A stretch of DNA of 64,000 bases from Patescibacteria group bacterium (GTDB taxonomy: Bacteria; Patescibacteriota; Patescibacteriia; UBA2591; UBA6264). Below are positions 25,111 to 64,000 of the stretch, piece after piece. The notes under the pieces are model-generated. The model was not told the DNA's origin. It worked only from the letters and a program-made list of their open reading frames with translations, and ran no database searches. The position numbers were made by a program, and so were the translations under genes. Position 1 is the stretch's first letter, and each line of letters starts with the position of its first letter. The stretch spans positions 15,994-79,993 of the forward strand of contig JAIPGN010000001.1 of NCBI GenBank assembly GCA_021735685.1, given 5' to 3'.

Positions 25111-26182
25111 TTATTTTTGTAAAACTTCTTGATAAAGTTTTAGAGTTTCTTGAGCGCATTTTTGCCAAGAAAAATTTTTTATTCGCTGACTTCCTTTCTT
25201 GATCATCTCTTCTCTTAATTTTTTGTTCTGATCTAATTCTAAAATAGCTTTAATCATTTCTTCAGAATTACAAGGATTGAAATACAAAGCCGCATTCCCA
25301 TATATTTCTGGTAAACAAGAAGCATCCGAAGAAACTACAGGTAAATTATTTTGCATTGCCTCTAACCCTGGTAAACCAAAACCTTCGCAAAGAGAAGGAA
25401 AAACATACATTAATGCATTTTGATACAATTCTTTCAAATCTCGGTCAGAAACTCTTCCTGAAAAAATAATTTTATTTTCTAAGCCCAATTCTTGAGCTGT
25501 TTTCTGAAGGGAACGATAAAAACTGTCTATCTTGCCAACTAAAACTAATCGCCACTTTGGCTTTAATTTTGAAATTTTTGAAAAAGATTTAATTAAAAAT
25601 TGAATATTCTTGTGAGGAAAAGCATTCCCCACATAGAGTAAATATTCTTCCTTAGTTGGCTTCATAAATAACCATAATTTTATTTGGATCAATATTATAC
25701 CTCTTAATTATTTCTTTTTGGCTAAAACAAGAGACAGTAATGATTTTTCTAGATCTTTGAATTGCATTTTTAATTACTAAAAAATAAACTCTTTTCTTTA
25801 AAAAAAAGAAAAAAGAGGGTAAATTAGAGCTTTGAGAGGAACTTTGTTCATGGATCAAATCATGAATAGTAACCACAAATGGTTTAAGGTAAAAAAGAGG
25901 AACATTAAAATGCAAAAAATGAACTAAATCTAATTTAAATTTGTAAAGCTGCCAAGGAAAAAAGATTTGTTCAGCCAAAGAATACCATTGGTAATCAGCT
26001 AAAACTTTATGAAAATTTTCATTTTGAGGATGATAATTATCAAAATTTTCCTTACGTAAAAAAATAAAATATTGATTCTTCTGATCAATTTTTTCTAAAT
26101 TTTTAATTAATTTTTGAGTATAACGTCCAATTCCCTTGCCATATTCTGGTCCATAAAATCGAGCATCAATTCCAATACGCAT
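25111..26182 (-). pseudogene. GT4-family glycosyltransferase split by a frameshift (two overlapping ORFs)
   Basis: ORF 25652..26182 is the N-terminal GT-B half (MRIGIDARFYGPEYGKGIGRY…). ORF 25111..25692 is the C-terminal half (…EGFGLPGLEAMQNNLPVVSSD…). The +1 frame change is near 25650-25690, in an A-rich stretch. Confidence 0.6.
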
Positions 26183-29355: not shown

Positions 29356-30399
29356 ATGTCTATTAATGATTTTTTCTCAGAAGCTGACAATTTAAAAGCT
29401 TCTGATATTCATCTTTCGGTCGATGCTCCCGTATTTTTCAGAGTTAATGGTTCTTTAAAAAAATCTCAAAAATGGCCAGTTCTTGATCAAGAAAAAATAA
29501 TTAATTTAATTTCTGAGATTATTTCTACAAAACAGAAAGAAAATCTTTTAAAAAACAAGTATTTAGAATTTTCTTATCAGAATAAAGAAAAAAATCGTTT
29601 TCGGGTTAGCGTTTTTTATGAAAAAAATAATTTAGCTCTAGCTGCGCGTTTAATTCTTTCAAAAATACCAACTCCTCAAGAAATTGGTCTCCCTAAAGGG
29701 GGAATAAAATTAGCAGAAGCAAAAACTGGTTTAGTTTTAGTTACGGGACCAACTGGTTGTGGTAAATCTACTACCTTAGCCACCATGATTGACTACATTA
29801 ATCAAGAAAGAGAATCTCATATTATTACCTTAGAAGATCCTATAGAATTTATTTTTAAAAACAAAAAAAGTTTAATTGCTCAAAGAGAGTTAGGAAAAGA
29901 TATACCTTCTTTTAATCTAGCCTTAAAGCATATTGTCCGCCAAGATCCTGATGTTATCTTAGTTAGTGAAATGAGAGACTTAGAGACAATTAGTTTAGCT
30001 ATTACCTTAGCTGAAACCGGACACTTGGTTTTATCAACTGTTCATACTCCAAGCGCTCCTCAGACCATAGATCGAATTATTGACGTCTTCCCTTATAATC
30101 AGCAAGAGCAAATTAGACTGCAAGTAGCCTTAGCTTTAAAAGGGGTAATATCTCAATACCTTCTTCCAAAAATAGGAGGAGGTAGAGTAGCAGCCCGAGA
30201 AATACTAATCAATACACCCGCGGTTTCTAATTTAATTAGAGAAAATAAAATAGCTCAAATAAAATCTGTTATACAAAATAGTAGTCGACAAGGAATGCAA
30301 GCTTTAGAAAAGGAACTAAAACATCTCTATCAAAGTAAAATAATAAAAATAGAGGATGCTTTAGCTTATGCTAACTATCCTCAAGAAATAATAAATTAA
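29356..30399 (+). CDS. pilT: type IV pilus retraction ATPase PilT-like (PilT/PilU family)
   Basis: 347 aa. Walker A GPTGCGKST and the PilT-family length and motif set. No pilB, pilC or pilM lie nearby. Confidence 0.75.
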   Translation: MSINDFFSEADNLKASDIHLSVDAPVFFRVNGSLKKSQKWPVLDQEKIINLISEIISTKQKENLLKNKYLEFSYQNKEKNRFRVSVFYEKNNLALAARLILSKIPTPQEIGLPKGGIKLAEAKTGLVLVTGPTGCGKSTTLATMIDYINQERESHIITLEDPIEFIFKNKKSLIAQRELGKDIPSFNLALKHIVRQDPDVILVSEMRDLETISLAITLAETGHLVLSTVHTPSAPQTIDRIIDVFPYNQQEQIRLQVALALKGVISQYLLPKIGGGRVAAREILINTPAVSNLIRENKIAQIKSVIQNSSRQGMQALEKELKHLYQSKIIKIEDALAYANYPQEIIN

Positions 30400-31004: not shown

Positions 31005-32129
31005 TTAACTTTTAATTGGCATAATTAGGTAAAAATAGGATGGGTCTTCTTCGGATTTAATTAAACCAGGAGAATTATCATTAACTATTTCTAGAATCAC
31101 TTCTGATCCAGACATATTATTTAAACCATCAATCAAATAACGATAATTAAATATTATTTCATTTGGATCACCAGTAATATCACTGTCAATAATTGCTTCA
31201 TTCTCACCAACCTGATTATTTAAAGAAGACACAATCAACTGATTCTTTTTAGGTATAAATTTAAGATTAATATCATTTACTCCAGATTTAACAAAAAAAC
31301 TAGCTGACTTAACAATTCTAACAAATTCTTCTCGATTAAGCAAAGCTTTAGTCTTGATATTAGTAGGAATAGTCTGTTTGTAATCAGGATAAGTTCCATT
31401 AATTATTCGAGAAATAATTTCAATATCTTGATAGGTGAATAAAATTTGATTCTCTGATAAATACAATTCTACTTCCTCTTCTTGGTCAGTTTTAATAATT
31501 TTAACTATTTCTTGTAAGGCTCTTAAAGGGACAATAACATTTCTTTCTGTTTTTAATTCATTCTTTTTTAAAGGAATAGTTATTTCTGATAAACGATAAC
31601 TATCAGTTCCGGCAATCACTAATTTCTTTTGATTATCTTTACCTTGAAAAGAGAACAAAGCACCACTTAATTCCATTCTAATATCTGAACTAGAAATTGA
31701 AAATATTATCTTTTCTAAAGCTTTTTTAAATTCTTGAGAATTTAAAACATATTTCTTTTTAGTATCTATTTGAGGAATAATCGGAAATTCTTCTGCTGAC
31801 ATTCCATTTATTTTTGCTTTTTGATTTTTGGTAGAAACAACTAATATATTTTTATTGGTTTCAAATTTTAATGGTTGCTTAGGAAGAAGATTAATATAAT
31901 TATTTAAAACTTGAGCTGGTACGGTAATTTTTCCTTCTTTTTCTATTTTAGACCTAATTTTTATCTCAGCAGCTATCTCTAAATTAGTGCTACTAATTTT
32001 CAATTCTCCGTCTTTAGCGCTTAAAAGAATATTATTCAAAATCGGTAGACTAGTCTTATTTAGACCAGCGATATGACTACTGATATTTAAAGCTTCGATT
32101 AAATTTTCTTGCAAACAAGTGAATTTCAT
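31005..32129 (-). CDS. dnaN: DNA polymerase III beta sliding clamp
   Basis: 374 aa, with a three-domain clamp pattern starting MKFTCLQENLIEAL. Confidence 0.8.
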   Translation of the reverse strand: MKFTCLQENLIEALNISSHIAGLNKTSLPILNNILLSAKDGELKISSTNLEIAAEIKIRSKIEKEGKITVPAQVLNNYINLLPKQPLKFETNKNILVVSTKNQKAKINGMSAEEFPIIPQIDTKKKYVLNSQEFKKALEKIIFSISSSDIRMELSGALFSFQGKDNQKKLVIAGTDSYRLSEITIPLKKNELKTERNVIVPLRALQEIVKIIKTDQEEEVELYLSENQILFTYQDIEIISRIINGTYPDYKQTIPTNIKTKALLNREEFVRIVKSASFFVKSGVNDINLKFIPKKNQLIVSSLNNQVGENEAIIDSDITGDPNEIIFNYRYLIDGLNNMSGSEVILEIVNDNSPGLIKSEEDPSYFYLIMPIKS

Positions 32130-32351: not shown

Positions 32352-33320
32352 CTACATTTTTTCAACAGTTTTGGAAAAATATAGAACCCAAGTTAAGTAT
32401 TGAAAAAGAGCCCAAAAAGATAATAAGATCAAAGAAATTAAAGTGATAATAATAGATAAAATAGCAATTAGGATCAAGAAGGCGGAAGGAGATAGAATAT
32501 TTAAAAGAAGTTTTAGGATTAAAGATAAAGGAACTAGAGTTCCAACAAAGATTAAGGAAATAAGAAGAGCGAAAATAATGCTAATGATTAATAAAAATAA
32601 AGAAATTTTAATTATTGATAGCCAGTTTTTGAAAAAGAATTTAATTGATTTTTTGATTGCCGAGAAAGCTTTTTCTTTCTTAATTATAATGAAGAAAATA
32701 CTAAATTTTACAATAAGAGTAAGGAATAGTCCTAAAAGTAAGGAAAAAAGAATATATATTGAACCCCAAAGATTAAAGAATTGATGATAAACATCGATTT
32801 GAGTCTTAAAAAGAATTGGTATATTAAGAAATAAAGCAATGATTATTCCAGAAAGAAAATAAATCAGAACAGAAGGTAAAAGGAATTTTTGGCTAGAAGA
32901 AAATAATTTTTGAAAGGACGTTTTCTTTTCTTTTTTTGACTTTAAAAACCATAAGATTAAATATATTTGAGAAACAAGAGTCAGGTAAGCAAAAAGAAGA
33001 ATTGCAAATAAAAATAACAGATTAAATCCGTTAAGATTTTTGAAGGTTCCTAAAATTAAAGTAATAATATCTGAAAATTCAGAAGATTGAGAGATTAGGA
33101 ACTTTGGAACGTTATTAATTACTGAACTAAAAAAAACATTGATTTCGCCGAGAATACTAAAAATTATTCTAAATTCTTGATTAATAAAGATTATTAAAAA
33201 AAATCCTAAAAATAAAAGTTGAGGATTTTTTAAACAAAGATTAAAAGATTTTTTAATGAATTTTAAAGGACTCCAGAAATTTTCCGAAAAATTGTTTTTG
33301 GTCTTAAAAAGAGAAATCAT
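32352..33320 (-). CDS. polytopic integral membrane protein, hypothetical
   Basis: 322 aa, extremely hydrophobic (I/L/F-rich) with multiple predicted TM helices. No recognisable motif. Confidence 0.4.
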   Translation of the reverse strand: MISLFKTKNNFSENFWSPLKFIKKSFNLCLKNPQLLFLGFFLIIFINQEFRIIFSILGEINVFFSSVINNVPKFLISQSSEFSDIITLILGTFKNLNGFNLLFLFAILLFAYLTLVSQIYLILWFLKSKKEKKTSFQKLFSSSQKFLLPSVLIYFLSGIIIALFLNIPILFKTQIDVYHQFFNLWGSIYILFSLLLGLFLTLIVKFSIFFIIIKKEKAFSAIKKSIKFFFKNWLSIIKISLFLLIISIIFALLISLIFVGTLVPLSLILKLLLNILSPSAFLILIAILSIIITLISLILLSFWALFQYLTWVLYFSKTVEKM

Positions 33321-45979: not shown

Positions 45980-47356
45980 ATGATTAAATTTAAATCTACT
46001 CGATTTATTGTTATTTTTTTCGTGATGACAGTTTTGATTAGCTCAGGATTTAGTTGTCGTTGCGTTTCTAATGAAATGGAGGAAAAGATAGCTCCTATTA
46101 ATTTGGTTTATTGGCGGGCCACAGATAGTCAAGATGCTTTTTTAGAAATAATTAAAAGTTTTCGAAAAAAATATCCTCACATTTCTGTTACCTATCGTTC
46201 TCTTCGACCTGAAGAATATGAACAAGCTTTATTAGAGGCTTGGGCTGAGGATCGAGGGCCAGATATTTTTTCTATTCCCCAAAATTGGTTAGGAAAGTAT
46301 CAAACTAAAATTTTACCTTTAGGGCTTTCTCAAGAAATATTAATGGCTCGGGAAGTGGTTTCAGAGGGAATTCAAAAAGAAGTTAAGGTCATAGAAGAAA
46401 AAAAGAAAGCTCCTAATCTAAGGCAGTTAAAAGAAACTTTTGTCGAAACAGTTCCTCAAGATATTTTAAAAGAAGGGAAGATATATGGACTTCCTTTGTC
46501 TTTGGATGTGTTAGCTCTTTATTATAATCGCGATATTTTAAACGAAGCTGGAATTATTCGCCCTCCTCAGAATTGGCAAGAGTTTGTAGACCAAGCAAGG
46601 ATATTGAATCTTTGGGATCAAGAGGGTAATTTTTTGCGCTCGGCCGTTCCTTTAGGGACTGCTAAGAATATTGAAAATTATCCCGACATTCTTTCTCTTT
46701 TAATGCTTCAGAATGGGACTTCAGTGGTTAATGAAACAGGACAAGCAATTTTTGACCAACCTCTCCCTCAAGACCCAGATTACTTCCCTGGAGAAGAAGC
46801 TCTTCGTTTTTATCTTTCTTTTGCCAATCCTTCTCAAGATATTTATAGCTGGAATCAGGATATGCCAGAATCCTTAAATGCCTTTACTCAAGGTTTGACT
46901 GGTTTTTTGTTTGGCTATTCTAACTATTTAAATTTAATTAAAGAACAGGCCCCCAAATTAAATTTTGACCTTACTAAAGTTCCTCAAATTAAAGAGTCTT
47001 TAAAAGAAGTGAATTATGCTAATTATTGGATGGAAACTGTCTCTAAGAAAAGTCAACATCCGGAAGCAGCTTGGGCTTTTTTGTTACATGCTATCGAACC
47101 AATTAATGCTAAAACTTTTGTAGAGAGGGCCAAAAAACCGACTGCTCATCGATCCCTAATCCAATTTCAATTAGAGGATTTTGATCTAATGCCTTTTGCT
47201 TCTAGTGTTCTTACAGCACAAACTTGGTACCAGGGCAAAAGTTATTCTTTAGTTAAAGAATCTTTTCAAGAAATGATTGAAAGCGTCTTAAATGGACAGA
47301 AAACAATTAAAGAGGCAATTAAATACGCTGCCCAAAGAATTAATTTGACTAATTAG
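45980..47356 (+). CDS. extracellular solute-binding lipoprotein (ABC-transporter SBP family 1-like), orphan
   Basis: 458 aa. Signal peptide with a Cys-containing lipobox-like segment. SBP_bac_1-like pattern throughout. No permease or ATPase genes adjacent. Confidence 0.6.
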   Translation: MIKFKSTRFIVIFFVMTVLISSGFSCRCVSNEMEEKIAPINLVYWRATDSQDAFLEIIKSFRKKYPHISVTYRSLRPEEYEQALLEAWAEDRGPDIFSIPQNWLGKYQTKILPLGLSQEILMAREVVSEGIQKEVKVIEEKKKAPNLRQLKETFVETVPQDILKEGKIYGLPLSLDVLALYYNRDILNEAGIIRPPQNWQEFVDQARILNLWDQEGNFLRSAVPLGTAKNIENYPDILSLLMLQNGTSVVNETGQAIFDQPLPQDPDYFPGEEALRFYLSFANPSQDIYSWNQDMPESLNAFTQGLTGFLFGYSNYLNLIKEQAPKLNFDLTKVPQIKESLKEVNYANYWMETVSKKSQHPEAAWAFLLHAIEPINAKTFVERAKKPTAHRSLIQFQLEDFDLMPFASSVLTAQTWYQGKSYSLVKESFQEMIESVLNGQKTIKEAIKYAAQRINLTN

Positions 47357-47439: not shown

Positions 47440-48048
47440 ATGTTATTAAAGAAAAAAAATATTTTTATTTTTCTGTTAATTGTTCTTTTTGTTTTTTTTC
47501 TAAATTTTAATTTAGCTGAAGCAGCTAATAATTGTAATGAATTTTGTAAAAGCAATTGTGGATTAGAGAACAATCCTAACCTTTGCCGAATAGTAGGGGC
47601 GGCAGAAGAAAATATGATTTGTAGTTGTTGTCCGGCAGTAATTGGTCAGGGCAATAAGTATGAGTGTTATTGCCAAAATAGCAATAAAGTAATTTGTGAG
47701 GTTGGAGGATTGTTTGGAGGAGAGAAAATGGCAATATGTTCTTGTTGCGGAGATTGTGATTTAAGTGATTTTTTGTATCTCGGAGTGAATGTTGCTGAAA
47801 ATATTTTAAAGTATATGGGGGCTTTAGCTCTTTTACTTTTTGTTTTAGGAGGGATTATGTGGATAACTTCGGGTGGCTCAAAGACCAGAATTCAAAAGGG
47901 AATGGCTATTATTAAAGGATCTTTGATTGGTTTAGCGATTATTATATTTGCTTTTTTGATGATAAGGGTTATAATGGAGAAAGTTTTAAAAGTGGAAGAT
48001 CAGTATCTTCCTCAATCTACTAGCGCGCAAGAACAAAAAATTTCTTAA
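47440..48048 (+). CDS. paralog 1 of small two-helix membrane protein family, with an N-terminal Cys-rich (14 Cys) ectodomain
   Basis: 202 aa. Sec signal peptide, a Cys-rich about 90-aa domain, then the helix1-WITSGG-helix2 module shared with the four downstream paralogs. Confidence 0.6.
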   Translation: MLLKKKNIFIFLLIVLFVFFLNFNLAEAANNCNEFCKSNCGLENNPNLCRIVGAAEENMICSCCPAVIGQGNKYECYCQNSNKVICEVGGLFGGEKMAICSCCGDCDLSDFLYLGVNVAENILKYMGALALLLFVLGGIMWITSGGSKTRIQKGMAIIKGSLIGLAIIIFAFLMIRVIMEKVLKVEDQYLPQSTSAQEQKIS

Positions 48049-48051
48049 TTT

Positions 48052-48402
48052 ATGAAGAAAAAAAATATTTTATTATTTTTAGTATTGAGTTGCCTTCTAG
48101 TTTTTGGTTGGAATGGTATAACCCAAGCGCAATCAGTAGTAAGTTTGCCTGATCCCTTAAAAGGACAAGGAGATGATCCTTCGGTTTTAGTTGGAAATAT
48201 TTTGAATTATGTTTTAGGGATGTTAGGCGTTTTGGCTTTAGTAATGTTTGTTTATGGTGGATTGATGTGGATGACTTCAGGTGGAGCCAGTGAAAAAATT
48301 AAAAAAGGAAAGGATACTATTGTTTGGTCAATCTTGGGATTGGCTTTAATTTTTTTCAGCTATGCCCTTTTGGATTTTATTTTAGCCGCTTTACAGCAAT
48401 AA
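48052..48402 (+). CDS. paralog 2 of small two-helix membrane protein family (VirB2/TrbC/TraA-like pilin topology)
   Basis: 116 aa. Signal peptide …TQAQS, then …VLGMLGVLALVMFVYGGLMWMTSGGASEKIKKGKDTIVWSILGLALIFFSYALLDF…. Confidence 0.6.
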   Translation: MKKKNILLFLVLSCLLVFGWNGITQAQSVVSLPDPLKGQGDDPSVLVGNILNYVLGMLGVLALVMFVYGGLMWMTSGGASEKIKKGKDTIVWSILGLALIFFSYALLDFILAALQQ

Positions 48403-48481
48403 GTATTGACTTGACAATTCATTAAGTAGTTTTATATTATTAAGTTAATAGGTCGAATTATTAATTATTTTAAGAAGAAAT

Positions 48482-48880
48482 ATGTTGAAAAAAATGAGAT
48501 CAAAGGCAAATCTTTGGTTTTTGGTAGTAATGATGATGGTTAGTTTGTTTTTCTCTTTACCTGTTTTAGCTCAGGAAGAAGAAAACCTTAATCTTCGAGA
48601 CGGTCTTGATGATTTTCTAACTGGTTCAGAGATGGGAGGCAAGCCAATTGGATTTGTGATTGGACGAATAGTGCAGGGAGTTTTAGGTATTCTTGGCTTG
48701 GTCTGTTTAGTTATCTTTGTTATTGCTGGTTTCCAGTGGATGACCTCTGCTGGCAGCAAAGAAAAAATTCAAAGTGCGCAAAAATCAATGAGCGCAGCAG
48801 TAATTGGTTTAATTATTGTGATTATTTCTTGGGCGGCGATTGATTTTATTGTTGGCGCTTTAGAATCTGTAACTGGATAA
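48482..48880 (+). CDS. paralog 3 of small two-helix membrane protein family
   Basis: 132 aa. Signal peptide …VLAQEE, then …VLGILGLVCLVIFVIAGFQWMTSAGSKEKIQSAQKSMSAAVIGLIIVIISWAAIDF…. Confidence 0.6.
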   Translation: MLKKMRSKANLWFLVVMMMVSLFFSLPVLAQEEENLNLRDGLDDFLTGSEMGGKPIGFVIGRIVQGVLGILGLVCLVIFVIAGFQWMTSAGSKEKIQSAQKSMSAAVIGLIIVIISWAAIDFIVGALESVTG

Positions 48881-48915
48881 AATTTTTCTTCTTAAAGTTA
48901 AAAAAGAGGTTTACA

Positions 48916-49290
48916 ATGAAAAAAAAGTTATTATCTTTTTTTAGCTTGTTTTTGTTATTTTCCTTGGTAATTGCTCCGGCTGTTTTTGCTCAGGATTTAG
49001 GACAAGCTCTTATGGATGATTTTCAAGACGAGGCTGGCATTGGCGATAAAAGCCTTGCTGAGGTCACAGGTAGTGTTGTTAAGGCAATTTTGAGTGTTTT
49101 AGGATTAGTTGCTTTAATTATTTTTATTATCGCTGGCTTCCAGTGGATGACCTCAGGTGGCAATAAAGAAAAGATTCAAGGCGCGCAAAAATTGATGGGA
49201 GCAGCAGTAATTGGTTTAATTATTGTGATTATTGCCTGGGCTGCCACTTACTTTGTGGTTCAATCCTTGACTGGTGTCACTGGAGCTTAA
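48916..49290 (+). CDS. paralog 4 of small two-helix membrane protein family
   Basis: 124 aa. Signal peptide …VFAQD, then …ILSVLGLVALIIFIIAGFQWMTSGGNKEKIQGAQKLMGAAVIGLIIVIIAWAATYF…. GAGG lies 9 nt upstream, the only SD-like start among the paralogs. Confidence 0.6.
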   Translation: MKKKLLSFFSLFLLFSLVIAPAVFAQDLGQALMDDFQDEAGIGDKSLAEVTGSVVKAILSVLGLVALIIFIIAGFQWMTSGGNKEKIQGAQKLMGAAVIGLIIVIIAWAATYFVVQSLTGVTGA

Positions 49291-49325
49291 CAAAAGATTA
49301 TTATCTTTGTAATTTAAGCTAATTT

Positions 49326-49718
49326 ATGTTTTTTTGTCGTTTCCGAGAAAAGGTCTCAAGACTTTGGGGAGCAATGATGTTTTTTTTCTTTTGTTTAATG
49401 ACTCCAGCGCAAGCTATTAACATTCGAGAAGGATTAACATCAGCTGCTTCTAGCGCTGGCCTAAATACCAATCAATCTTTGGCCCTAACCGTTGGCTTAG
49501 TATTTCAGAAAGTGTTAGGTGTTTTAGGACTAATTTTATTAGTTTTATTTGTGGCGGGTGGTTTAATGTGGATGACTTCGGGAGGAAGTACTGATAAAAT
49601 AAAAAAAGCTCGAGGCCTGCTTATTAATGCTGTAATTGGCATGGTTCTTGTGATTTTAGCTTACGCCTTAACTGATTTAGTGATTGGGGGTATAGAGAAA
49701 GCGATAATTACGAATTAG
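49326..49718 (+). CDS. paralog 5 of small two-helix membrane protein family
   Basis: 130 aa. The true start is probably the internal MMFFFFCLMTPAQA. …VLGVLGLILLVLFVAGGLMWMTSGGSTDKIKKARGLLINAVIGMVLVILAYALTDL…. Confidence 0.55.
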   Translation: MFFCRFREKVSRLWGAMMFFFFCLMTPAQAINIREGLTSAASSAGLNTNQSLALTVGLVFQKVLGVLGLILLVLFVAGGLMWMTSGGSTDKIKKARGLLINAVIGMVLVILAYALTDLVIGGIEKAIITN

Positions 49719-49826
49719 CTTAACATAGTTTTTCAAGAAACTATAAAAATGCACTCAGATATTTTCTGGGTGCATTTTGTTTTTAAAATTTTACTTTGTC
49801 TTTTAGAAGTGTTAAAATAAATTAAT

Positions 49827-56842: not shown

Positions 56843-59800
56843 ATGATTTTTAAGGAATCAGGCAATGCTTTTAAAAAAGGAGCGACCTTGTTGATGGTAT
56901 TTTTTTTGGTCGTTTCTTTTTCTTTTGTTCCTCAAAAGGTTCAAGCTCAGTTTATAGTTACTGATATTTTTAAAATGGGTTGGGATGTAGCCAAAAAGGC
57001 TTGGGAACATGGCGGAGCAATTGCTTACCATAACGCCCTTAGTTATGTTCTTCAGCAAATGGCTAAACAAACCGGAGAATGGTTGGCAGAAGGAGGCAAG
57101 GGAAAAAAGCCTCTTTTTTGGACTGATCCAAAAGAATTTTTTGAAAAAGCAGGAGATCAAGTACTGGGAGAGTTTATTGACGGCATGGCCAGCAGTTTTT
57201 TGGGTCAAAGTTTATGTGATAATTTAGATTACACGGTTAAGTTTAACATTTTAGCCAATCTGGACCCTAATTATGCGCAAACCAAATGGGCGGAAGAGCC
57301 AGAATGTTCATTTTCTCAAATGAAGAAAAATCTAGAAAAAATGAAAATATCTAATATGGCTGAATTTTCTACTGAATTAAAAGAAGGAAAAGTAGATAAG
57401 CAGGAAAGCATGATTACTACTTTAATTCAAGGAGACTCTGTTTTAACCAGCGAACAAAAAATATGGTTGGATGGCGAATTAGATACTTGTCCAGAGCCTG
57501 GCTCTTGTCCAGAGGGAGAAGACTATATTGTTATTTGGGACTCTCATTATTATGAGATAGCAAATGCTGGAGCTGCTGCCTATTTACATTCTTATACTCA
57601 AAAATTTAAAGATATTTTAGAAGAATTAAAGGCAATTAGTGAAGGAGAGACTGAAGGTCAAAAACAACATGATGTTTTAGAAGGCACAGCGGTTAGAAAA
57701 TTTAAAGATTTGCAAGATAAATTAGCTCCAGATACAGGCCCAGAGCTTTGGGGGGATGGGGAGGTTTATTCTCCAGGAAGCAATTCAAGAACTGGTCTAA
57801 AGGCCTTAAATGAAGTTAGCGCAGAATGCGTTAGAAATAGTCAACAAATTTGTGATAATCCTGATTGTGTGGCTCTTTGTCATATTGGTGGCACAAACAA
57901 TTGCCAGAGCGATGAATCAACTTGTTTGGACCGTTTAAAAAGAATTAAGTCTTACAGTAATCAATTAGTAGAATGGGCGAGCACTATCCAGGATATGACT
58001 GATCGGTCTATTGCTAATTGGGAAGCTAGAGAGGCAATTCCCGACTTGGATCCGCTTACTGATGCCGAGTTTATGTTTAATCCAGAAAGTAATCCCATTG
58101 GGATTCAAATGAGCTTGGAAAGCAAGCTTTTTGCTCAACAAACAGAAGCAATTGAGAAAAGTAAATTTTTCCGTCAGTTACAAGGCTCTATGAATGCGGT
58201 TACTTCCAAAGTTTCTGGTTTAGTTAAGTGGCCATCTACTTTAGTGGATGAAAAAACTAGAGATATGGTGGAAGCTTCGCAAGGCAGTATTGCTGAAACT
58301 ACGGGAGTGGCAGCAGCGGATGCCTTAAATGTTTTGGCTAGCACCTTTCTTCAACAATTTATGAAAAGGATAATGAAAGGTTCTCTTAATCCTGCTTTGG
58401 ATAGTGGAGGAGTTACTGTTCCTTCTGACCCTGACGCTCCTCCAGCTAACAAGGTTATTTCGGTTTTAAGCGGAATTGAAATTGTTCCTTTGAGTCAGAG
58501 TAGTCAAGAAATGACGATTTATGACGAGTTTACGGTTTGCCCTAGCGGAACAGACCAAAAACATATTTCTCAATTTAATTGTTTAATTGATAATAAATTA
58601 TCTCGGGCCATGGAAGAAAAATTGACTTTAGCTGAAGCCATGGAAAGGGATTTCTTGAGCCCATCTGAACGTTTAGGAGTAGAGGGCCAGTCAAATAGTT
58701 TGTTGGCTGAATCTAATTTAAAGAAGTTAAGATTATTAGGAATTATTCCCTTAGGACTAGAAATTGCTCATAAAAAAATTATTGAAGAGCAGTACAGCAA
58801 TGGTTTGCCTTTATCTGAAGTTATAGCTGGTTTTAATCAAAGAGGGGAAGATGGGATTTGTGGTACTTTAGATCAAGGAGAAAGTCCTTTTTGTAATCTA
58901 GTTGATCCTAATTGGGTTTTAAGGGCCGATAGTTATTTGTGCGAATTAACTGGCTATTCAGCTATTCCGGGCCGAGATAGCGTTTTTCGCCAAGAATCTT
59001 GTTTAGATTTTAAAACTTGTATTTCCGAATCAGAAGAAAGTTGTGATACTTGGTCTTACTGTACTCGTGCCAAAAACGTCTGGCGATTTGATGGAGATGA
59101 ATGTGATGCTCAATACAGTAGCTGTACCTCTTATGTTAATCAAAATAATGGAAAAACCTATTCTTATTTGGCCAATACTTTGAATTTTGAAAATTGTGAT
59201 TCCAATAATGTGGGGTGTCAATGGTATTGTTCAGATTGGGATCCAGTATATTCAGGGGTTGAAAATTGGTCTTGTGCTGCTCCAGGTTGGCGAAAATATA
59301 ATTGTAATTTAGGCTCTCCTTGTGAGACTGAAGCTGGATGTGATTGTAGTTGTGATGGCGATAACGGATGTCCGTCGGGAATTGGATCTTGTTTGGTCGC
59401 CGAAGGCGCTACTTATTGTACTTTAGAAAAACCTCATCCTCAAAATACTATATTCTTTAGTAGTCATGTGGATGATTGTAAAGAAACAGAAGAGGGTTGT
59501 TCTCAGTATATTAGGACGACCCCAGGCTTAGGCGTTAATTTTTTAGTAAATGGTAGTTTTGAATTAGGAGTTAATTCGGGAGGAGCTCCCCTAGGCTGGA
59601 GTTCCAATCAAGAGCAATTGATTAGTAAGTTTAACCCAGAAGAAGGATCCATTCCTAATGGGAATAATGTTTTAAGAATTCAAGGGGAAGGAGGACCGTA
59701 TGGGATATTTTTAAAGCAAGAGGTTAATAATATTTCTCCATCTTCAAGTAATTTAATTATCTCTGGTTATTACAAAGATGTTGATAGTTCGGTGAGTGGT

Positions 59801-62800
59801 GATAATAAATTAAGGGTTAAGGCTTGTTATGATTCTGGTTGTAGTGACTTTGACCTTAAAGAAAAACCAATTGACCTTGAAGAAAATCAATGGAAATATA
59901 ATGTTCTTACAATTTCTTTGAATAAAAATAAATCAATTGATCATTTAGTGGTGGAGGCCATAAGAAATGCTGTTAATAATTTTTCCGGAATTCTTTACTT
60001 AGATTCTTTTCAGGTTAGAAACGAAAGCGGTAATTCTTCTTATCGCGAGTATGGCTCGCACGGTAATGTTTATTTAAAAAGCGCTCCTCAATGGATGAAT
60101 TGTTATGATACTGATTCTTCTAACGATCATGCAGATTGTGTTAATTTTATTTCTCTTTGTTCAGCTGAAGAGGTTGGCTGTGAGCTCTATACTTCTGTCA
60201 GCAATCAGGGCGATATTCAGATTCCAGCCATAGTTCAAGAATCAGATCAATGTCCTTCTACTTGCGTTGGTTATGAGACTTTTGAAGAAATTGGCTCTTT
60301 TTTTGATCCTCGAGTCAATCGTTGGGTGGAAATGATTCCGCAAACTGCGCGAAAATGTTTAGCTCCAGGTTGTGAGGCGTTTACCAATTTAGATTTTTTG
60401 GCTCAAGGTGGTGAAGCTGAGGAATATTATACTTATCTTCGTCAGTGCGTTAAAGTTAATCAAGAAGGATTGGCGATTATTGATTCGGCGGGAGAAGAAA
60501 TTTCTCCAGCCTCTAATGATACTTGCCAGTATTACTATACTTGGATCGGAGAAGAAGAGTCTGGCTATCAATTAAGAAGTTATTATTTGGAAAAAGATTC
60601 TAATTTGGGTGGTCCACTTCAAGTTAGTTCAAGCCCTAATCCAAGTTGGGGAGAATGTGATGAAAATAATTTAGACAACCCTCATTGTCGTCAATTTTAT
60701 GACGATGAAGGTAATGTTTATTATCGTTTTTATAAAAATACGATTAGCTGTTCTCAGGATTGTAAACCTTATCGTCGAGAGATTGATGACGAAATTTATA
60801 TGGCTATTGGCACAGAAGGAGAGGTCTGCCGCCCCCAAGACTTAGGTTGCCGCGAGTACAAAGGGGCTGCCTACGGAAGTATGCGTAATTTATTTGAAGA
60901 TAAATTTTTAAATGAAAATAGTCTTGCAGGTTGGGAGAGAGTAGAACTAAGCACAGAGTCTTTAGATCGTTTTGGTTATTCTCTTCAGGCCAACGATACT
61001 TATGTGAAAAAGCCTGCATCTTCTTATCTTAAACAGGGAGGAGTTTATTCTTTGAAGCTTTGGGTTAAAGGAGGTGGGAATTATAGAGCTTCTTTGGGAA
61101 GCGTTGATTTCCTCCAAGGAGAGAGCCAGGCTGTTGTTTCTGAAGAGTGGCAAGAAATAAAGTTTGGAACAATTTATTTTAATCAAGAGTTAAGTGGTGA
61201 TGAAAATTTAATTATTTACGGCCCCAATGAATTTTATTTAGATAATATTTCTTTGAATAAAGTAGAGGATGATCTTTATTTAATTAAAGATTCTTGGGAT
61301 ACTCCTCAAATTTGTGATTTGGATGCTGACGGAAATATTTCTCCAGGATACATGGTTGGTTGTCGGGCTTATCAAGACCGAGTTAAGAATTATCATTATT
61401 TTAAATCTTTTAGCCGTCTTTGTTCATCCGAAGCTGCTGGTTGTGAGGCTTTGATCAATACTTATAATTCAAGCTCCCCTTTCTCGGAACAATTTAATTC
61501 TGGCTCACCGGACGGAGACGAGTTAACTGTCTTAGCCGACGCTACGGTCTACCGAATATATGATTCTGAATATTCTTGTGCGGCCGAGAAAAAGGGTTGT
61601 CAAAAATTTGGTCAACCTGAGTTCAGTGAAGAGGAAGAGGTGGTTGGCTATCAAGATGTCTTTTTAATCAATGACCCCGATGCTTATCAGTTGCAATCTA
61701 TACTTTGCGACTTCAGTGGATGGGGTTGCCAAGAATATAATGGCCCGGTTTATTTTAAAGACCCGGGAAGTAAAGTTTGCGAGTACCGAGAAAATGTTTC
61801 GCTTTATGGAGAAACCAAAAATGGTTGGTTTAAGCAGGGAACCAACAATCCTTGTTATCTTGAAAGTGGTCTTGCCTATCAACCCTATGGTTCGGTTTAT
61901 GGAATTCGTTTTAATGATGACCCCCTTTATGATGGTTGGGCGGGAATTTGCCCAGGCGGTCAAGATGGCTGTACCCAGTTTATTGATCCTTTGGCTCAAA
62001 ATTTAATTTTAAATAGTGGCTTGGAAGAAGATGTTAATGAGGACGGGGTTCCCGATCATTGGGATTCTTATGCTTTGCCTGATTCTTTTGATTTGCAAAA
62101 TAACGGTTGTTTGAGTGGTCAATGTTGGTTTGTGGATACTACGAGTGATACTGCGGCCGCTAGTCAGTATATCAAAATTAATCCCGGCTCTACTTACGAG
62201 CTTTCTGCTTGGGTGAAAGCAAGAGAGGGATCGACAGGATCTGTTAAAATTTATCTCGCTTATGTCGACCAGAAGCCTTCTGGCGACTGGATAGATGTTG
62301 TTTCTGTTGCTAATGATAATGATTTGCAAGGAAAATGGGAAAAATTAAGCGTGAGTTTAATCGCTCCTCTTGATGCTCAATATGCTCGAGTTTTGGTTCC
62401 TTATGTCAGTGATTTAATGGAGGTTCATGTTGATAATATCTCCTTAATTGAGAAAAATTCTTCAAAAGGAAGCTATTATTTTATTAATAACGACAATTTA
62501 GATCGTTCTTCTTGCGCTGGTATGGTTGGAGTCAAAGATGGTTGTATTCTTTTTAATGATACCTCTTTATCCGGTCGTTTGCCTTATGATTCGGCGTCTA
62601 CTTATGCTTTAAGCCAAGAGAATAATGATTTAGCAGTACCAGTTAGTAATATTCCTGTTGGTTCGGGGGCGGAAGGAGATAGTAATTTAATTTTAAAAGT
62701 AAAAAGAGATCGAGTCTGTGGGGAGTGGTTGCATTGTTCTGGGTCTTATCAGGTTTGGGACAGCTCTATTGATGATTATCGCCAAGTCTGTGATTCTTGG

Positions 62801-64000
62801 GTTCGTTGCGATCAATTAATTGGTGAGGCCAAGAACGCTCAATGTGGGCATGTTGTTTATGACCCTAATCCTCAAGTTTTAACGCCAGAACTTTATCAAG
62901 AAAGAAATGTTTCTTGGAAAGGGATGGATTATGTTGGTTATTCTCTTCTGGGCACTTATCCAGTAGAGAGGCTAACTCCCACAGAAAACGAGCTTAAATA
63001 TCAATTAACCTATTTTGATCAAGATGGTAATGATTTGGGGATTGATAATCAAGGAACAATATTAGATAAGTCTGTCCACGTTTATCCAGAAAAAGATTCT
63101 CCTTTTAAGAAAAATGCTGGTGAATATTATAATAAAGTTAATTTATGTAATAGTTCGGAAGAAGACGATGCCAGTTCTCTTTATCCAGATTGTCAGGGTG
63201 TTTACAAAAAAGTTGAATATGGGGATCAATATAGCGGGCAAACTAAATATTTTAATTTTGATGATAGTGGTGCAGCTGATCAAGGGGTTTGTAGAATGAG
63301 CGGTGAGGAATGCGGCGACGATGAGACTGATTGTATTACTGCAGGTGACGAATGTTTGCCTCCATTAAGAGTGACTGATGCAGTTGGTCTGCGTGGTTTT
63401 TGTTTAGAGCCAGATGAGTCTAAACCGGACGAGATTGATGCCTGCATTACTTGGTGGCCCGGAGCAGCTGTAGGAGACATGGACGTTTTTAATATGTATT
63501 ATTCAGCTGGTTATGTGCCTCCAGCAGCTACAAAATGGTATTGTGCTAGTGATGACAGTGGGGATGAATTGGGGATAGCTAGGCAAGCGTGTGATTATAA
63601 TTGTAAAAGAGGTTTTGGTGGTAGTTATTCTAAATATATTGGCTTGTCGGATAGTCAATCTGACTGGCGGGTTAATGGGAAAAGTGGTTGTGGGGGGGAT
63701 GATATTAATTCAGGAATTTTTAGATTAGGAGAGATTGAAAAAATAGAAGTTTATATTTTTGCAGACGATGGCACTAGCAGTGGTAGCTGCACAAGCCCTC
63801 ATTGTCAAGGTTATGTAACTCTTAACAAAGAAACTGGTTGGTGGAGGGGAATAAAGAATAATGATCAAGGTAGCTGTAACAAGGGGAATGGCGAAGGCTT
63901 GCCCACTTCTTTTCCTTCTAGTTTTCCCCTGAGTGCACCAGATGGAGGAGGGTCTACGTCGGTAAAGGCTTGCTTCAATGAGGCTTGTGATAGTTATGAT
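56843..64000 (+). CDS. giant secreted cysteine-rich surface protein (partial, over 2380 aa, continues beyond the window) with at least three CBM4/9-like beta-sandwich domains
   Basis: Open frame from ATG 56843 to the window end with no stop. An alternative start at 56894 is preceded by AAGGAG. Signal peptide MVFFLVVSFSFVPQKVQAQ. Dense Cys pairs (CxxC…C). Three segments with VNGSFE…/LNSGLEED…/FLNENSLAGWE… jelly-roll CBM-like signatures. Confidence 0.7.
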   Translation, partial: MIFKESGNAFKKGATLLMVFFLVVSFSFVPQKVQAQFIVTDIFKMGWDVAKKAWEHGGAIAYHNALSYVLQQMAKQTGEWLAEGGKGKKPLFWTDPKEFFEKAGDQVLGEFIDGMASSFLGQSLCDNLDYTVKFNILANLDPNYAQTKWAEEPECSFSQMKKNLEKMKISNMAEFSTELKEGKVDKQESMITTLIQGDSVLTSEQKIWLDGELDTCPEPGSCPEGEDYIVIWDSHYYEIANAGAAAYLHSYTQKFKDILEELKAISEGETEGQKQHDVLEGTAVRKFKDLQDKLAPDTGPELWGDGEVYSPGSNSRTGLKALNEVSAECVRNSQQICDNPDCVALCHIGGTNNCQSDESTCLDRLKRIKSYSNQLVEWASTIQDMTDRSIANWEAREAIPDLDPLTDAEFMFNPESNPIGIQMSLESKLFAQQTEAIEKSKFFRQLQGSMNAVTSKVSGLVKWPSTLVDEKTRDMVEASQGSIAETTGVAAADALNVLASTFLQQFMKRIMKGSLNPALDSGGVTVPSDPDAPPANKVISVLSGIEIVPLSQSSQEMTIYDEFTVCPSGTDQKHISQFNCLIDNKLSRAMEEKLTLAEAMERDFLSPSERLGVEGQSNSLLAESNLKKLRLLGIIPLGLEIAHKKIIEEQYSNGLPLSEVIAGFNQRGEDGICGTLDQGESPFCNLVDPNWVLRADSYLCELTGYSAIPGRDSVFRQESCLDFKTCISESEESCDTWSYCTRAKNVWRFDGDECDAQYSSCTSYVNQNNGKTYSYLANTLNFENCDSNNVGCQWYCSDWDPVYSGVENWSCAAPGWRKYNCNLGSPCETEAGCDCSCDGDNGCPSGIGSCLVAEGATYCTLEKPHPQNTIFFSSHVDDCKETEEGCSQYIRTTPGLGVNFLVNGSFELGVNSGGAPLGWSSNQEQLISKFNPEEGSIPNGNNVLRIQGEGGPYGIFLKQEVNNISPSSSNLIISGYYKDVDSSVSGDNKLRVKACYDSGCSDFDLKEKPIDLEENQWKYNVLTISLNKNKSIDHLVVEAIRNAVNNFSGILYLDSFQVRNESGNSSYREYGSHGNVYLKSAPQWMNCYDTDSSNDHADCVNFISLCSAEEVGCELYTSVSNQGDIQIPAIVQESDQCPSTCVGYETFEEIGSFFDPRVNRWVEMIPQTARKCLAPGCEAFTNLDFLAQGGEAEEYYTYLRQCVKVNQEGLAIIDSAGEEISPASNDTCQYYYTWIGEEESGYQLRSYYLEKDSNLGGPLQVSSSPNPSWGECDENNLDNPHCRQFYDDEGNVYYRFYKNTISCSQDCKPYRREIDDEIYMAIGTEGEVCRPQDLGCREYKGAAYGSMRNLFEDKFLNENSLAGWERVELSTESLDRFGYSLQANDTYVKKPASSYLKQGGVYSLKLWVKGGGNYRASLGSVDFLQGESQAVVSEEWQEIKFGTIYFNQELSGDENLIIYGPNEFYLDNISLNKVEDDLYLIKDSWDTPQICDLDADGNISPGYMVGCRAYQDRVKNYHYFKSFSRLCSSEAAGCEALINTYNSSSPFSEQFNSGSPDGDELTVLADATVYRIYDSEYSCAAEKKGCQKFGQPEFSEEEEVVGYQDVFLINDPDAYQLQSILCDFSGWGCQEYNGPVYFKDPGSKVCEYRENVSLYGETKNGWFKQGTNNPCYLESGLAYQPYGSVYGIRFNDDPLYDGWAGICPGGQDGCTQFIDPLAQNLILNSGLEEDVNEDGVPDHWDSYALPDSFDLQNNGCLSGQCWFVDTTSDTAAASQYIKINPGSTYELSAWVKAREGSTGSVKIYLAYVDQKPSGDWIDVVSVANDNDLQGKWEKLSVSLIAPLDAQYARVLVPYVSDLMEVHVDNISLIEKNSSKGSYYFINNDNLDRSSCAGMVGVKDGCILFNDTSLSGRLPYDSASTYALSQENNDLAVPVSNIPVGSGAEGDSNLILKVKRDRVCGEWLHCSGSYQVWDSSIDDYRQVCDSWVRCDQLIGEAKNAQCGHVVYDPNPQVLTPELYQERNVSWKGMDYVGYSLLGTYPVERLTPTENELKYQLTYFDQDGNDLGIDNQGTILDKSVHVYPEKDSPFKKNAGEYYNKVNLCNSSEEDDASSLYPDCQGVYKKVEYGDQYSGQTKYFNFDDSGAADQGVCRMSGEECGDDETDCITAGDECLPPLRVTDAVGLRGFCLEPDESKPDEIDACITWWPGAAVGDMDVFNMYYSAGYVPPAATKWYCASDDSGDELGIARQACDYNCKRGFGGSYSKYIGLSDSQSDWRVNGKSGCGGDDINSGIFRLGEIEKIEVYIFADDGTSSGSCTSPHCQGYVTLNKETGWWRGIKNNDQGSCNKGNGEGLPTSFPSSFPLSAPDGGGSTSVKACFNEACDSYD

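What the first reader, a model, noticed from the sequence alone, without database searches (positions are those of the whole stretch)
47440..48048. Cys-rich (14 Cys in about 90 aa) ectodomain on the first pilin-like paralog
The domain CNEFCKSNCGLENNPNLCRIVGAAEENMICSCCPAVIGQGNKYECYCQNSNKVICEVGGLFGGEKMAICSCCGDCD precedes the two-helix module. It is disulfide-rich or metal-binding, and is not present on the other four paralogs. This suggests a specialised tip, adhesin or minor-pilin-like subunit.
Basis: seen in the sequence. Interest (0 to 1): 0.5.

Follow-up and report, generated by a model that had tools for sequence, protein, structure and literature searches.

The report
Disulfide-rich head on a VirB2-like pilin
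The first of five tandem secretion-system (VirB2-like) pilin genes in this ultrasmall Patescibacteria bacterium carries a conserved, unclassified, cysteine-rich outer head, probably disulfide-bonded, which marks it as the one specialised subunit of a conserved pilin cassette, although where it sits and what it binds is not shown.

Summary
ORF 47440..48048 (+), 202 aa, has 14 Cys in residues 32-106. The window background is 1.2% Cys, so P is about 4e-13. The Cys run lies between a cleavable signal peptide and a two-helix module.

That module is homologous to the four downstream paralogs, which are PF18895 T4SS_pilin (VirB2/TrbC-like) proteins, not type IV pilins.

The head belongs to a small, unannotated family of about 46 distinct proteins, all on pilin modules. 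It has no Pfam, PDB-sequence or significant fold match.

Disulfides are favoured over metal binding:
- 45 of 46 ectodomains have an even Cys count.
- Cys pairs are gained and lost together.
- The predicted topology puts the domain outside the cell.

With 29 sequences, AF2 gives pLDDT 82: a helix plus two beta-hairpins on the helical hairpin.

In all 27 related loci there is exactly one headed pilin. It comes directly after a sugar-type solute-binding-protein gene and before 3-4 plain pilins. In the three loci compared gene by gene, each plain pilin best matches the gene of the same rank.

Relatives add peptidoglycan-binding or further Cys-rich domains after helix 2.

Best reading: a single-copy specialised (minor) subunit, placed at the tip or the base, that contacts cell-wall glycan. 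The structural part is well supported. The tip/adhesin role is only an inference. It is a new variant of a known kind, because Patescibacteria VirB2 arrays are already described.

The parts
47440..48048 (+). CDS of the 'headed' VirB2-like pilin, 202 aa plus stop. It equals NCBI MCF7906727.1, annotated as a hypothetical protein.
47440..47523 (+). Signal peptide, res 1-28: KKK n-region, hydrophobic core, AEA|A signal-peptidase-I-type site.
   Evidence: Sequence; hydropathy and charge; conserved in homologs.
47524..47628 (+). Distal, variable half of the head, res 29-63. It contains C32, C36, C40, C49, C61 and C63 and the RxIG motif. AF2 predicts helix 30-40 and beta-hairpin 49-55/58-63. Many family members lack this half.
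47629..47775 (+). Conserved juxtamembrane core of the head, res 64-112. It holds the family's 8-Cys core (C64, C76, C78, C86, C100, C102, C103, C106), of which C86 and C102 are jointly absent in P0032/P0033. The motif is C-x11-CxCQxSNxVxxCxVG...[VI]C[AS]CCGDCxLxDFL. AF2 predicts hairpin 73-78/82-87 and short helix 95-103.
47761..47865 (+). Helix alpha-1, the first membrane helix of the pilin module (AF2 res 108-142).
47866..47880 (+). Turn of the inter-helix loop, part of the conserved W-I-T-S-G-G-S-K motif region. The stretch res 142-160 has 4 K/R and no D/E, so the loop is predicted to be cytoplasmic.
47881..47985 (+). Helix alpha-2, the second membrane helix (AF2 res 148-182).
47986..48045 (+). 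Extracellular C-terminal tail with the conserved E-x-YLPxS motif. AF2 confidence here is low. In relatives, PG_binding_1 or further Cys-rich domains are appended at this point.
45980..47356 (+). SBP_bac_1 / SBP_bac_8 solute-binding protein, 458 aa. It resembles sugar-binding (MalE-like) proteins. It is the gene immediately upstream of the headed pilin in every locus that has upstream sequence.
48052..48402 (+). Plain PF18895 pilin 2. Its start lies 3 nt after the stop of the headed pilin, and it is the closest paralog (43% identity over the helices).
48482..48880 (+). Plain PF18895 pilin 3.
48916..49290 (+). Plain PF18895 pilin 4.
49326..49718 (+). Plain PF18895 pilin 5.
48411..48440 (+). Promoter-like site (11 of 12 matches) between pilin 2 and pilin 3. 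This is a consensus match only.
49746..49778 (+). Terminator-like 14-bp stem followed by a T run, after pilin 5. It probably marks the end of the array.

Best explanation
**Shown.** The gene encodes a VirB2/TrbC-type (PF18895-like) two-helix membrane pilin. Its mature N-terminus carries a roughly 80-residue cysteine-rich head, and a short conserved C-terminal tail follows helix 2. Predicted topology puts the head and the tail outside the cell and the basic inter-helix loop in the cytoplasm.

The head is most probably held together by seven disulfides. Four lie in a conserved juxtamembrane core and three in a variable distal cap.

The protein is the single specialised member of a conserved chromosomal cassette: a sugar-type solute-binding protein gene, then the headed pilin, then 3-4 plain pilins. 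In the three loci compared gene by gene, each plain pilin best matches the gene of the same rank, so the paralogs are old and not interchangeable.

**Inferred.** It co-assembles with the plain pilins through the shared helical hairpin as a low-copy (minor) subunit. It would sit most likely at the distal end of the filament or conduit, as a first-in priming or cap subunit that does the job VirB5 does in diderm systems. Its rigid head, together with the peptidoglycan-binding or extra Cys-rich modules added in relatives, would contact cell-wall glycan of the partner cell, or of its own wall. Tip versus base is not resolved.

For: **Topology.** Signal peptide; acidic head (5 K/R, 9 D/E); inter-helix loop with 4 K/R and no D/E.

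**Disulfides.**
- 45 of 46 distinct family members have an even Cys count (6-16) in the head.
- C40 and C63 are lost together in P0012 (compared with P0011) and in P0007.
- C86 and C102 are lost together in P0032 and P0033.
- C66 and C74 are gained together in P0005, P0008, P0009 and P0021.
- CPR bacteria are reported to be enriched in MdbA-like oxidoreductase and VKOR (bioRxiv 10.1101/335083).

**Fold.** AF2 with 29 sequences gives mean pLDDT 82.2, with 76-90 per 10-residue block across the head: a helix and two beta-hairpins.

**Specialised single-copy role.**
- There is exactly one headed pilin per array, always directly after the SBP gene and before the plain pilins, in 27 of 27 loci covering roughly 20 distinct lineages.
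- Paralogs match by rank in the array in the three loci compared (L001, L004, L008).
- The profile search of 1.84 billion representatives found the head only on pilin modules.
- Relatives append PG_binding_1 (up to a 935-aa protein) or extra Cys-rich modules after helix 2. That is too bulky for every subunit of a helical filament.

**Context from the literature.** VirB2-like arrays of 2-11 genes are widespread in Patescibacteria, and the array is essential in Southlakia. No PrgB-type adhesin was detected, and VirB5 appears only in one rare Gram-negative-type (MPF-T) cluster (PMC12102498, PMC10633639, PMC12857230).
Against: - No filament, tip location or binding activity has been observed for any member.
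- No VirB4, VirB6 or VirD4 was found in the 64-kb window or in the 20-kb flanks examined (the Pfam columns).
- The window protein itself scores below the PF18895 cut-off (17.9 against 26.6 bits).
- The conserved part of the head is the membrane-proximal core. That fits contact with a conserved partner or with the organism's own wall better than host-specific adhesion.
- A peptidoglycan-binding add-on fits a basal wall anchor at least as well as a tip.
- Gene order does not predict position in a filament.
- The disulfide pairing is inferred from presence/absence patterns in few independent events. One member (P0019 / L016) has 11 Cys.
- No Dsb or VKOR gene lies in the window.
Confidence: 0.45

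Rival explanations
1. Basal anchor or terminator subunit. The headed pilin would be the last subunit added, or a stationary one, and would stay in the membrane. Its head, and the PG_binding_1 domain in relatives, would tie the base of the pilin assembly to the bacterium's own peptidoglycan. This would be analogous in role to the basal pilins of sortase pili.
For: - PG_binding_1 follows helix 2 in P0011, P0021, P0024, P0027 and P0033.
- The most conserved part of the head is juxtamembrane.
- The cassette is flanked by wall genes in every locus examined: PBP1A upstream, LysM-CHAP downstream.
Against: - The window protein has no PG-binding domain.
- Nothing shows it is retained in the membrane.
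- The flanking synteny may simply reflect a conserved chromosome backbone.
Confidence: 0.25
2. Not part of a filament. The two-helix module would serve only as a membrane anchor that displays the Cys-rich head next to the co-encoded solute-binding lipoprotein, for example as a docking or receptor partner in sugar capture or sensing.
For: - The SBP gene is immediately upstream in every locus with upstream sequence, often with a gap of 1-14 nt.
- The SBP resembles sugar-binding proteins, and no ABC permease gene is adjacent.
- Pilus formation by PF18895 proteins in monoderm CPR bacteria is still only proposed.
Against: - The helical module keeps the pilin signature (WxTSGG loop).
- The gene is embedded in a pilin array and lies 3 nt before pilin 2.
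- The head never occurs without the pilin module.
Confidence: 0.12
3. Decorated major pilin. Every subunit of one type of filament would carry the head, giving a studded pilus.
For: In solved conjugative pili (general knowledge of the F and T pilus structures), the pilin N- and C-termini face outward. A small 8-kDa head could therefore in principle be tolerated on each subunit.
Against: - There is one headed gene against 3-4 plain genes, all kept as same-rank best matches in the loci compared.
- Relatives carry 100-750-aa C-terminal extensions, which are hard to fit on every subunit.
Confidence: 0.08
4. Metal-binding (metallothionein- or zinc-ribbon-like) domain rather than a disulfide-bonded one.
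For: CxC, CC and Cx3C spacings with 19% Cys resemble metal-thiolate proteins. The organisms are probably anaerobes. No Dsb or VKOR gene is in the window.
Against: - The predicted location is extracytoplasmic.
- The Cys count is even in 45 of 46 members, including counts not divisible by 4 (6, 10, 14).
- Specific Cys pairs are lost and gained together.
- There is no conserved His.
- AF2 predicts a confident beta-hairpin fold.
Confidence: 0.07
5. Annotation artefact. The Cys-rich part would be a separate small gene, or the start would be mis-called.
For: In locus L015 the head and the helices are in two ORFs.
Against: - The window gene is one uninterrupted frame.
- The signal peptide and the fusion are conserved in about 45 other family members down to about 35% identity.
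Confidence: 0.01

Closest known systems
VirB2-like pilin arrays of Patescibacteria (PF18895 T4SS_pilin; Southlakia epibionticum ML1 array; Quinonero-Coronel et al. 2025, PMC12102498; Wang et al. 2023, PMC10633639)
   Same: Tandem arrays of divergent two-helix pilins with Sec signal peptides in CPR chromosomes. The helical module of the headed protein is homologous to them.
   Different: - The papers read here do not mention a member with a Cys-rich globular N-terminal head (one search found no pilin-related use of 'cysteine').
- This array is not next to virB4 within 64 kb.
- It is always preceded by an SBP gene.
- Its paralogs match by rank in the three loci compared, rather than behaving as freely varying copies.
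VirB5 / TraC tip protein of diderm T4SS pili
   Same: The proposed role only: a low-copy subunit that primes the pilus and ends up at its tip, contacting the target (role as described in PMC12857230).
   Different: No sequence or fold relationship was found. To my knowledge VirB5 is a soluble helical protein without the pilin hairpin. Here the specialised subunit is built on the pilin scaffold itself.
TrbC / VirB2 / TraA conjugative pilins of plasmids, and archaeal conjugation pilins (e.g. PDB 8dfu)
Minor pilins of type IV pili (e.g. the FimU-PilVWXE priming complex)
   Same: The concept of specialised low-copy pilins that prime assembly and carry adhesive or bulky domains.
   Different: A different superfamily. 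The protein here has no class III signal peptide or prepilin-peptidase motif, and it has two membrane helices rather than one.
Knottins, defensins and other small disulfide-rich domains
   Same: High Cys density and a small beta-hairpin-rich fold probably stapled by disulfides.
   Different: No Pfam hit at E<=10, no PDB sequence hit at E<=10, and no Foldseek hit below E 0.9. It has 14 Cys in 75 residues, with an 8-Cys core pattern of its own.

Membership tests
PF18895 T4SS_pilin (VirB2/TrbC-like pilins of CPR bacteria) | Match to the Pfam model at or above the gathering score (26.6 bits). | tested here: not met
   The window protein scores 17.9 bits, E 0.0034, over res 126-178. Several family members do pass (P0011 32.2, P0022 32.7, P0024 32.4 bits), as do the four neighbouring paralogs (31-42.5 bits).
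PF18895 T4SS_pilin (VirB2/TrbC-like pilins of CPR bacteria) | Homology of the two-helix module to bona fide members. | tested here: met
   hhalign against a profile of 11 plain pilins: probability 98.9%, E 1.2e-17, 78 columns. BLASTP against pilin 2: 43% identity, E 2e-17.
PF18895 T4SS_pilin (VirB2/TrbC-like pilins of CPR bacteria) | Architecture: Sec signal peptide, two hydrophobic helices, a short basic loop with the W-x-T-S-G-G motif. | tested here: met
T4SS pilus subunit (functional membership) | Genetic linkage to a VirB4/VirB6-type machine. | tested here: not met
   No such Pfam domain was found in the 51 window ORFs scanned (of the 56 ORFs of at least 110 aa) or in the flanks of related loci. 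The rest of the genome was not available. According to PMC12102498, 1,135 of 1,948 VirB4-containing assemblies with pilins have the pilin gene near virB4, so about 40% do not.
T4SS pilus subunit (functional membership) | Polymerises into an extracellular filament. | not testable with these tools
   Needs microscopy or biochemistry.
Type IV (T4P) pilins | Class III signal peptide with a prepilin-peptidase site (G|F/M-x-x-x-E) and a single N-terminal hydrophobic helix. | tested here: not met
   The sequence shows a classical AxA signal peptide and two C-terminal helices. No T4P Pfam family was hit.
Known small disulfide-rich families (knottin, defensin, EGF-like and others) | A sequence-profile or fold match to a described family. 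| tested here: not met
Disulfide-bonded extracytoplasmic domain | Outside location, an even number of Cys, and correlated gain and loss of Cys pairs. | tested here: met
   45 of 46 members are even. The covarying pairs are C40/C63, C86/C102 and C66/C74.
Metallothionein- or zinc-binding domain | Cys/His ligand sets in fours, a cytoplasmic or metal-rich context, and tolerance of single-ligand changes. | tested here: inconclusive
   Counts of 6, 10 and 14 Cys, no conserved His, and an outside location argue against it. Metal content cannot be tested here.
Sortase substrates (LPxTG) | LPxTG followed by a hydrophobic stretch and a basic tail. | tested here: not met
   The tail has YLPQSTSAQEQKIS. 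It has no G at the fifth position, no hydrophobic stretch and no basic end.

The most novel reading that the evidence does not exclude
In one clade of Patescibacteria, a conserved cassette builds a heteromeric VirB2-type filament or conduit that is encoded apart from the T4SS core genes. The cassette is a sugar-binding SBP lipoprotein, one disulfide-knotted 'headed' pilin and 3-4 plain pilins that match by rank across the loci compared. The headed pilin would be a new kind of tip or nucleator subunit: a VirB5 analogue built on the pilin fold, with a previously unseen Cys-rich fold. Together with the SBP or with appended peptidoglycan-binding modules, it would recognise the cell-wall glycan of the host cell. 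That would be a concrete molecular handle on how non-Saccharibacteria CPR bacteria dock to their hosts.
Probability: 0.2. Interest if true: 0.75.

Novelty: new variant of a known kind. Interest (0 to 1): 0.5.

Why it matters
VirB2-like pilin arrays are essential for the epibiotic life of the one genetically tractable Patescibacteria species. Nobody yet knows what structure they build, why several divergent pilins are needed, or what contacts the host. No VirB5-type tip protein or PrgB-type adhesin has been found.

A single paralog in a fixed position, with a rigid outward-facing head to which evolution repeatedly attaches peptidoglycan-binding and other Cys-rich modules, is an obvious candidate for the contact or anchoring end of that structure. 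The head is small, about 80 residues, and could be expressed for disulfide mapping, structure determination, glycan-binding tests and antibody labelling.

The rank-by-rank matching of the plain pilins in the loci compared also argues against the published idea that these arrays mainly provide antigenic or host-range variation, at least in this clade.

Full report
**1. The observation**

The ORF at 47440..48048 (+) is a single 202-aa frame. It contains the quoted peptide exactly, as residues 32-107.

It has 14 Cys, at positions 32, 36, 40, 49, 61, 63, 64, 76, 78, 86, 100, 102, 103 and 106. That is 14 in 75 residues.

Long ORFs of the window average 1.2% Cys at a GC content of 34%. The chance of 14 or more Cys in 75 residues is therefore about 4e-13.

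The Cys run is preceded by a classical signal peptide (MLLKKK, a hydrophobic core, then AEA|A). It is followed by two hydrophobic helices joined by a basic loop with 4 K/R and no acidic residues. The head itself is acidic. Predicted topology therefore puts the head and the C-terminal tail outside the cell and the loop inside.

The four downstream paralogs have only a short, Cys-free segment at that position.

**2. What the paralogs are**

The four neighbours (48052-48402, 48482-48880, 48916-49290, 49326-49718) pass the Pfam threshold for PF18895 T4SS_pilin. They also touch PF04956 TrbC/VirB2 and the NCBIfam Mbov_0395 pilin-like conjugal transfer family. They are therefore VirB2-type pilins of type IV secretion systems, not type IV pilins.

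The Cys-rich protein itself scores below the Pfam cut-off (17.9 against 26.6 bits). Its C-terminal 98 residues nevertheless align to a profile of 11 plain pilins with hhalign probability 98.9%, E 1.2e-17. They align to paralog 2 with 43% identity, E 2e-17.

The organism is a Patescibacteria (CPR) bacterium. The protein is identical to MCF7906727.1, 'hypothetical protein K9K85_00365'.

**3. The family**

A full-length search found 12 homologs, all with the head.

An exhaustive profile search with the head alone, against 1.84 billion cluster representatives, found 22 proteins at E<=1e-3. Twenty of them are pilin-module proteins. The other two are spurious repeat proteins.

A motif scan of GTDB species representatives added 15 loci. 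In total there are about 46 distinct sequences.

The head never occurs apart from the pilin module.

The universally conserved part is the membrane-proximal half. It holds eight Cys (C64, C76, C78, C86, C100, C102, C103, C106) in the pattern C-x11-CxCQxSNxVxxCxVG...[VI]C[AS]CCGDCxLxDFL, which runs straight into helix 1. Only P0032 and P0033 lack two of these, C86 and C102 together.

The distal half (C32, C36, C40, C49, C61, C63) is present in the window protein and its closer relatives. It is reduced or absent in others.

No Pfam family matches at E<=10. No PDB sequence matches at E<=10.

**4. Disulfide or metal**

Forty-five of 46 heads have an even number of Cys (6, 8, 10, 12, 14 or 16). The exception, P0019 / L016, has 11.

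Cys residues appear and disappear in pairs:
- C40 and C63 are both absent in P0012, although its sister P0011 has both. They are also both absent in P0007.
- C86 and C102 are both absent in P0032 and P0033.
- An extra pair, at alignment positions 66 and 74, appears in P0005, P0008, P0009 and P0021.

Counts such as 6, 10 and 14, the lack of a conserved His, and the outside location all argue against tetrahedral metal sites.

CPR bacteria are reported to be enriched in an MdbA-like thiol-disulfide oxidoreductase with VKOR (bioRxiv 10.1101/335083). None is encoded in this window.

I conclude that the window protein most probably has seven disulfides. The number of independent evolutionary events behind this is small, and chemical proof is lacking.

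**5. Structure**

AF2 with 12 sequences was poor (pLDDT 60).

With a 29-sequence alignment of the mature protein it reached mean pLDDT 82.2 and pTM 0.60, with 76-90 per 10-residue block across the head. The predicted elements are:
- helix 30-40
- beta-hairpin 49-55/58-63
- beta-hairpin 73-78/82-87
- short helix 95-103
- two long helices, 108-142 and 148-182
- a disordered tail

The head thus has no recognisable solved relative. It could not, however, be searched as an isolated domain.

A suspected internal duplication of the head is only weakly supported (hhalign probability 21.6%).

**6. Genomic context**

In the window and in all 27 related loci the order is the same: an SBP_bac_1 gene, then exactly one headed pilin, then 3-4 plain pilins. 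These loci span identities from 87% down to about 35% in the head.

The gap between the SBP stop and the pilin start is 1-14 nt in at least ten distinct loci and 83 nt in the window.

PBP1A lies upstream on the other strand, but in some loci it is separated by 2-4 kb of other genes. The downstream genes also vary. The SBP-pilin unit is therefore the conserved core.

The SBP resembles sugar-binding (MalE-like) proteins. It has no adjacent permease gene.

The flanks are housekeeping genes: YceG, rhamnose-pathway genes, YebC, RuvC, LysM-CHAP and LeuRS. The GC content of the array equals the window mean. No VirB4, VirB6 or VirD4 is present among the 51 window ORFs scanned, out of the 56 ORFs of at least 110 aa.

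Each plain paralog of the window has its best match at the same rank of the array in the three loci compared, L001, L004 and L008. Pilins 3 and 4 are the closest to each other.

The paralogs are thus old and kept individually. This points to distinct structural roles rather than interchangeable variants.

In the window, the stop of the headed pilin is followed after 3 nt by the start of pilin 2. A promoter-like site lies between pilins 2 and 3, and a strong terminator-like hairpin follows pilin 5. These last two are consensus matches only.

**7. Add-on domains in relatives**

After helix 2, on the same outer side as the head, several family members carry PG_binding_1: P0011, P0021, P0024, P0027 and P0033, the last 935 aa long. 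Others carry unclassified Cys-rich modules (6-12 Cys after the head in P0020, P0022, P0034, P0035).

The window protein has only a 20-residue tail, with the family-wide E-x-YLPxS motif.

Such bulky additions are unlikely on every subunit of a helical polymer. They suggest that this protein is the part of the assembly that touches cell-wall material.

**8. Interpretation**

*Shown:*
- a VirB2-type pilin with a conserved, outward-facing, Cys-rich head that is probably disulfide-stapled
- one such gene per conserved cassette

*Inferred:*
- It is a low-copy specialised subunit that co-assembles with the plain pilins through the shared hairpin.
- It sits either at the distal end, as a first-in cap that would fill the role VirB5 has in diderm systems, or at the base as a wall anchor.
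- It contacts peptidoglycan or another wall glycan.

I prefer the cap reading for two reasons. The published Patescibacteria survey detected no PrgB-type adhesin, and it reports VirB5 only in one rare Gram-negative-type (MPF-T) cluster (PMC12102498). Repeated domain accretion is also typical of contact proteins.

Against the cap reading, the conserved core is membrane-proximal, and PG-binding modules suit the anchor reading equally well.

Other rivals are a pilus-independent partner of the SBP, a decorated major pilin and a metal-binding domain. They are listed with their tests. A mis-called start is excluded.

**9. Comparison with what is known**

VirB2-like pilin arrays of 2-11 genes are already described in Patescibacteria: 441 arrays in 383 assemblies. 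In Southlakia the array is essential. Whether they form pili in these monoderm bacteria is still open (PMC12102498, PMC10633639, PMC12857230).

I found no mention of a Cys-rich headed member, of the SBP linkage or of rank-by-rank orthology in those papers, nor in a full-text search.

The finding is therefore a new variant within a known kind of system. The head domain itself is unclassified.

**10. Verdict**

The tip/adhesin role is plausible but unproven. Interest is moderate, 0.5.

Noticed in passing
window 45980-47356 (+); also L001-L027: A sugar-type solute-binding protein gene (SBP_bac_1/SBP_bac_8) sits directly upstream of the headed pilin in every related locus with upstream sequence, often only 1-14 nt away. 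No ABC permease gene is nearby. It may be a functional partner of the pilin cassette rather than a transporter component.
   Followed up: partly
window 48052-49718 (+) compared with L001, L004, L008: The four plain pilins each best match the gene of the same rank in these three loci. Pilins 3 and 4 are the most alike, and arrays with three plain pilins presumably have a single pilin 3/4 gene. This argues for fixed, distinct roles rather than antigenic variation.
   Followed up: partly
L004/L005/L006 11098-11355; L013 (same species): A small 85-aa GIY-YIG nuclease-like ORF is inserted between pilin 2 and pilin 3 of the array in one lineage. It may be a mobile homing-endonuclease-type insertion.
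   Followed up: no
P0020, P0022, P0024, P0034, P0035; L017, L019, L027: Relatives carry a second, unclassified Cys-rich module after helix 2, ending ...C-x-G-x(3-5)-CC-[KE]-P. In P0024 the C-terminal extension holds 46 Cys and looks repetitive. Pfam reports nothing for these modules.
   Followed up: no
window ~56845-64000 (+): A giant ORF of at least 2,394 aa begins with a signal-peptide-like N-terminus and runs off the end of the window. The syntenic gene in L002 encodes 2,787 aa with a weak CBM_4_9 hit, so it is probably a giant surface protein.
   Followed up: partly
window 25111-25692 and 25652-26182 (-): Two overlapping ORFs carry the C-terminal (Glycos_transf_1) and N-terminal (Glyco_transf_4) halves of a GT4 glycosyltransferase. 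This looks like a frameshifted or split gene.
   Followed up: no
window 29356-30399 (+), 31005-32129 (-), 32352-33320 (-): A PilT-like T2SSE ATPase and dnaN lie about 15 kb from the array. The 322-aa ORF next to dnaN has no Pfam hit. Published work notes that T4SS genes lie near the origin in some Patescibacteria. Origin proximity was not tested here.
   Followed up: no
L013-L016, L018, L021, L023, L024, L026, L027 (record titles): Several TPA_asm MAG records that carry this CPR-type syntenic cassette are titled 'uncultured Gammaproteobacteria bacterium'. The label looks like a placeholder or a mis-assignment.
   Followed up: no
L015 9866-10264 and 10342-10557: In one MAG the headed pilin is split into a 132-aa head ORF and a 71-aa helical ORF. 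This is a likely frameshift, pseudogene or assembly error.
   Followed up: no
window 15159-17381 (-) and 12792-14657 (-): A subtilase with FG-GAP repeats and a VanW/PG_binding_4 protein lie side by side, separated only by a small HSP20 gene (14654-15145). They are further cell-surface or wall-associated proteins in the window and are unrelated to the finding.
   Followed up: no
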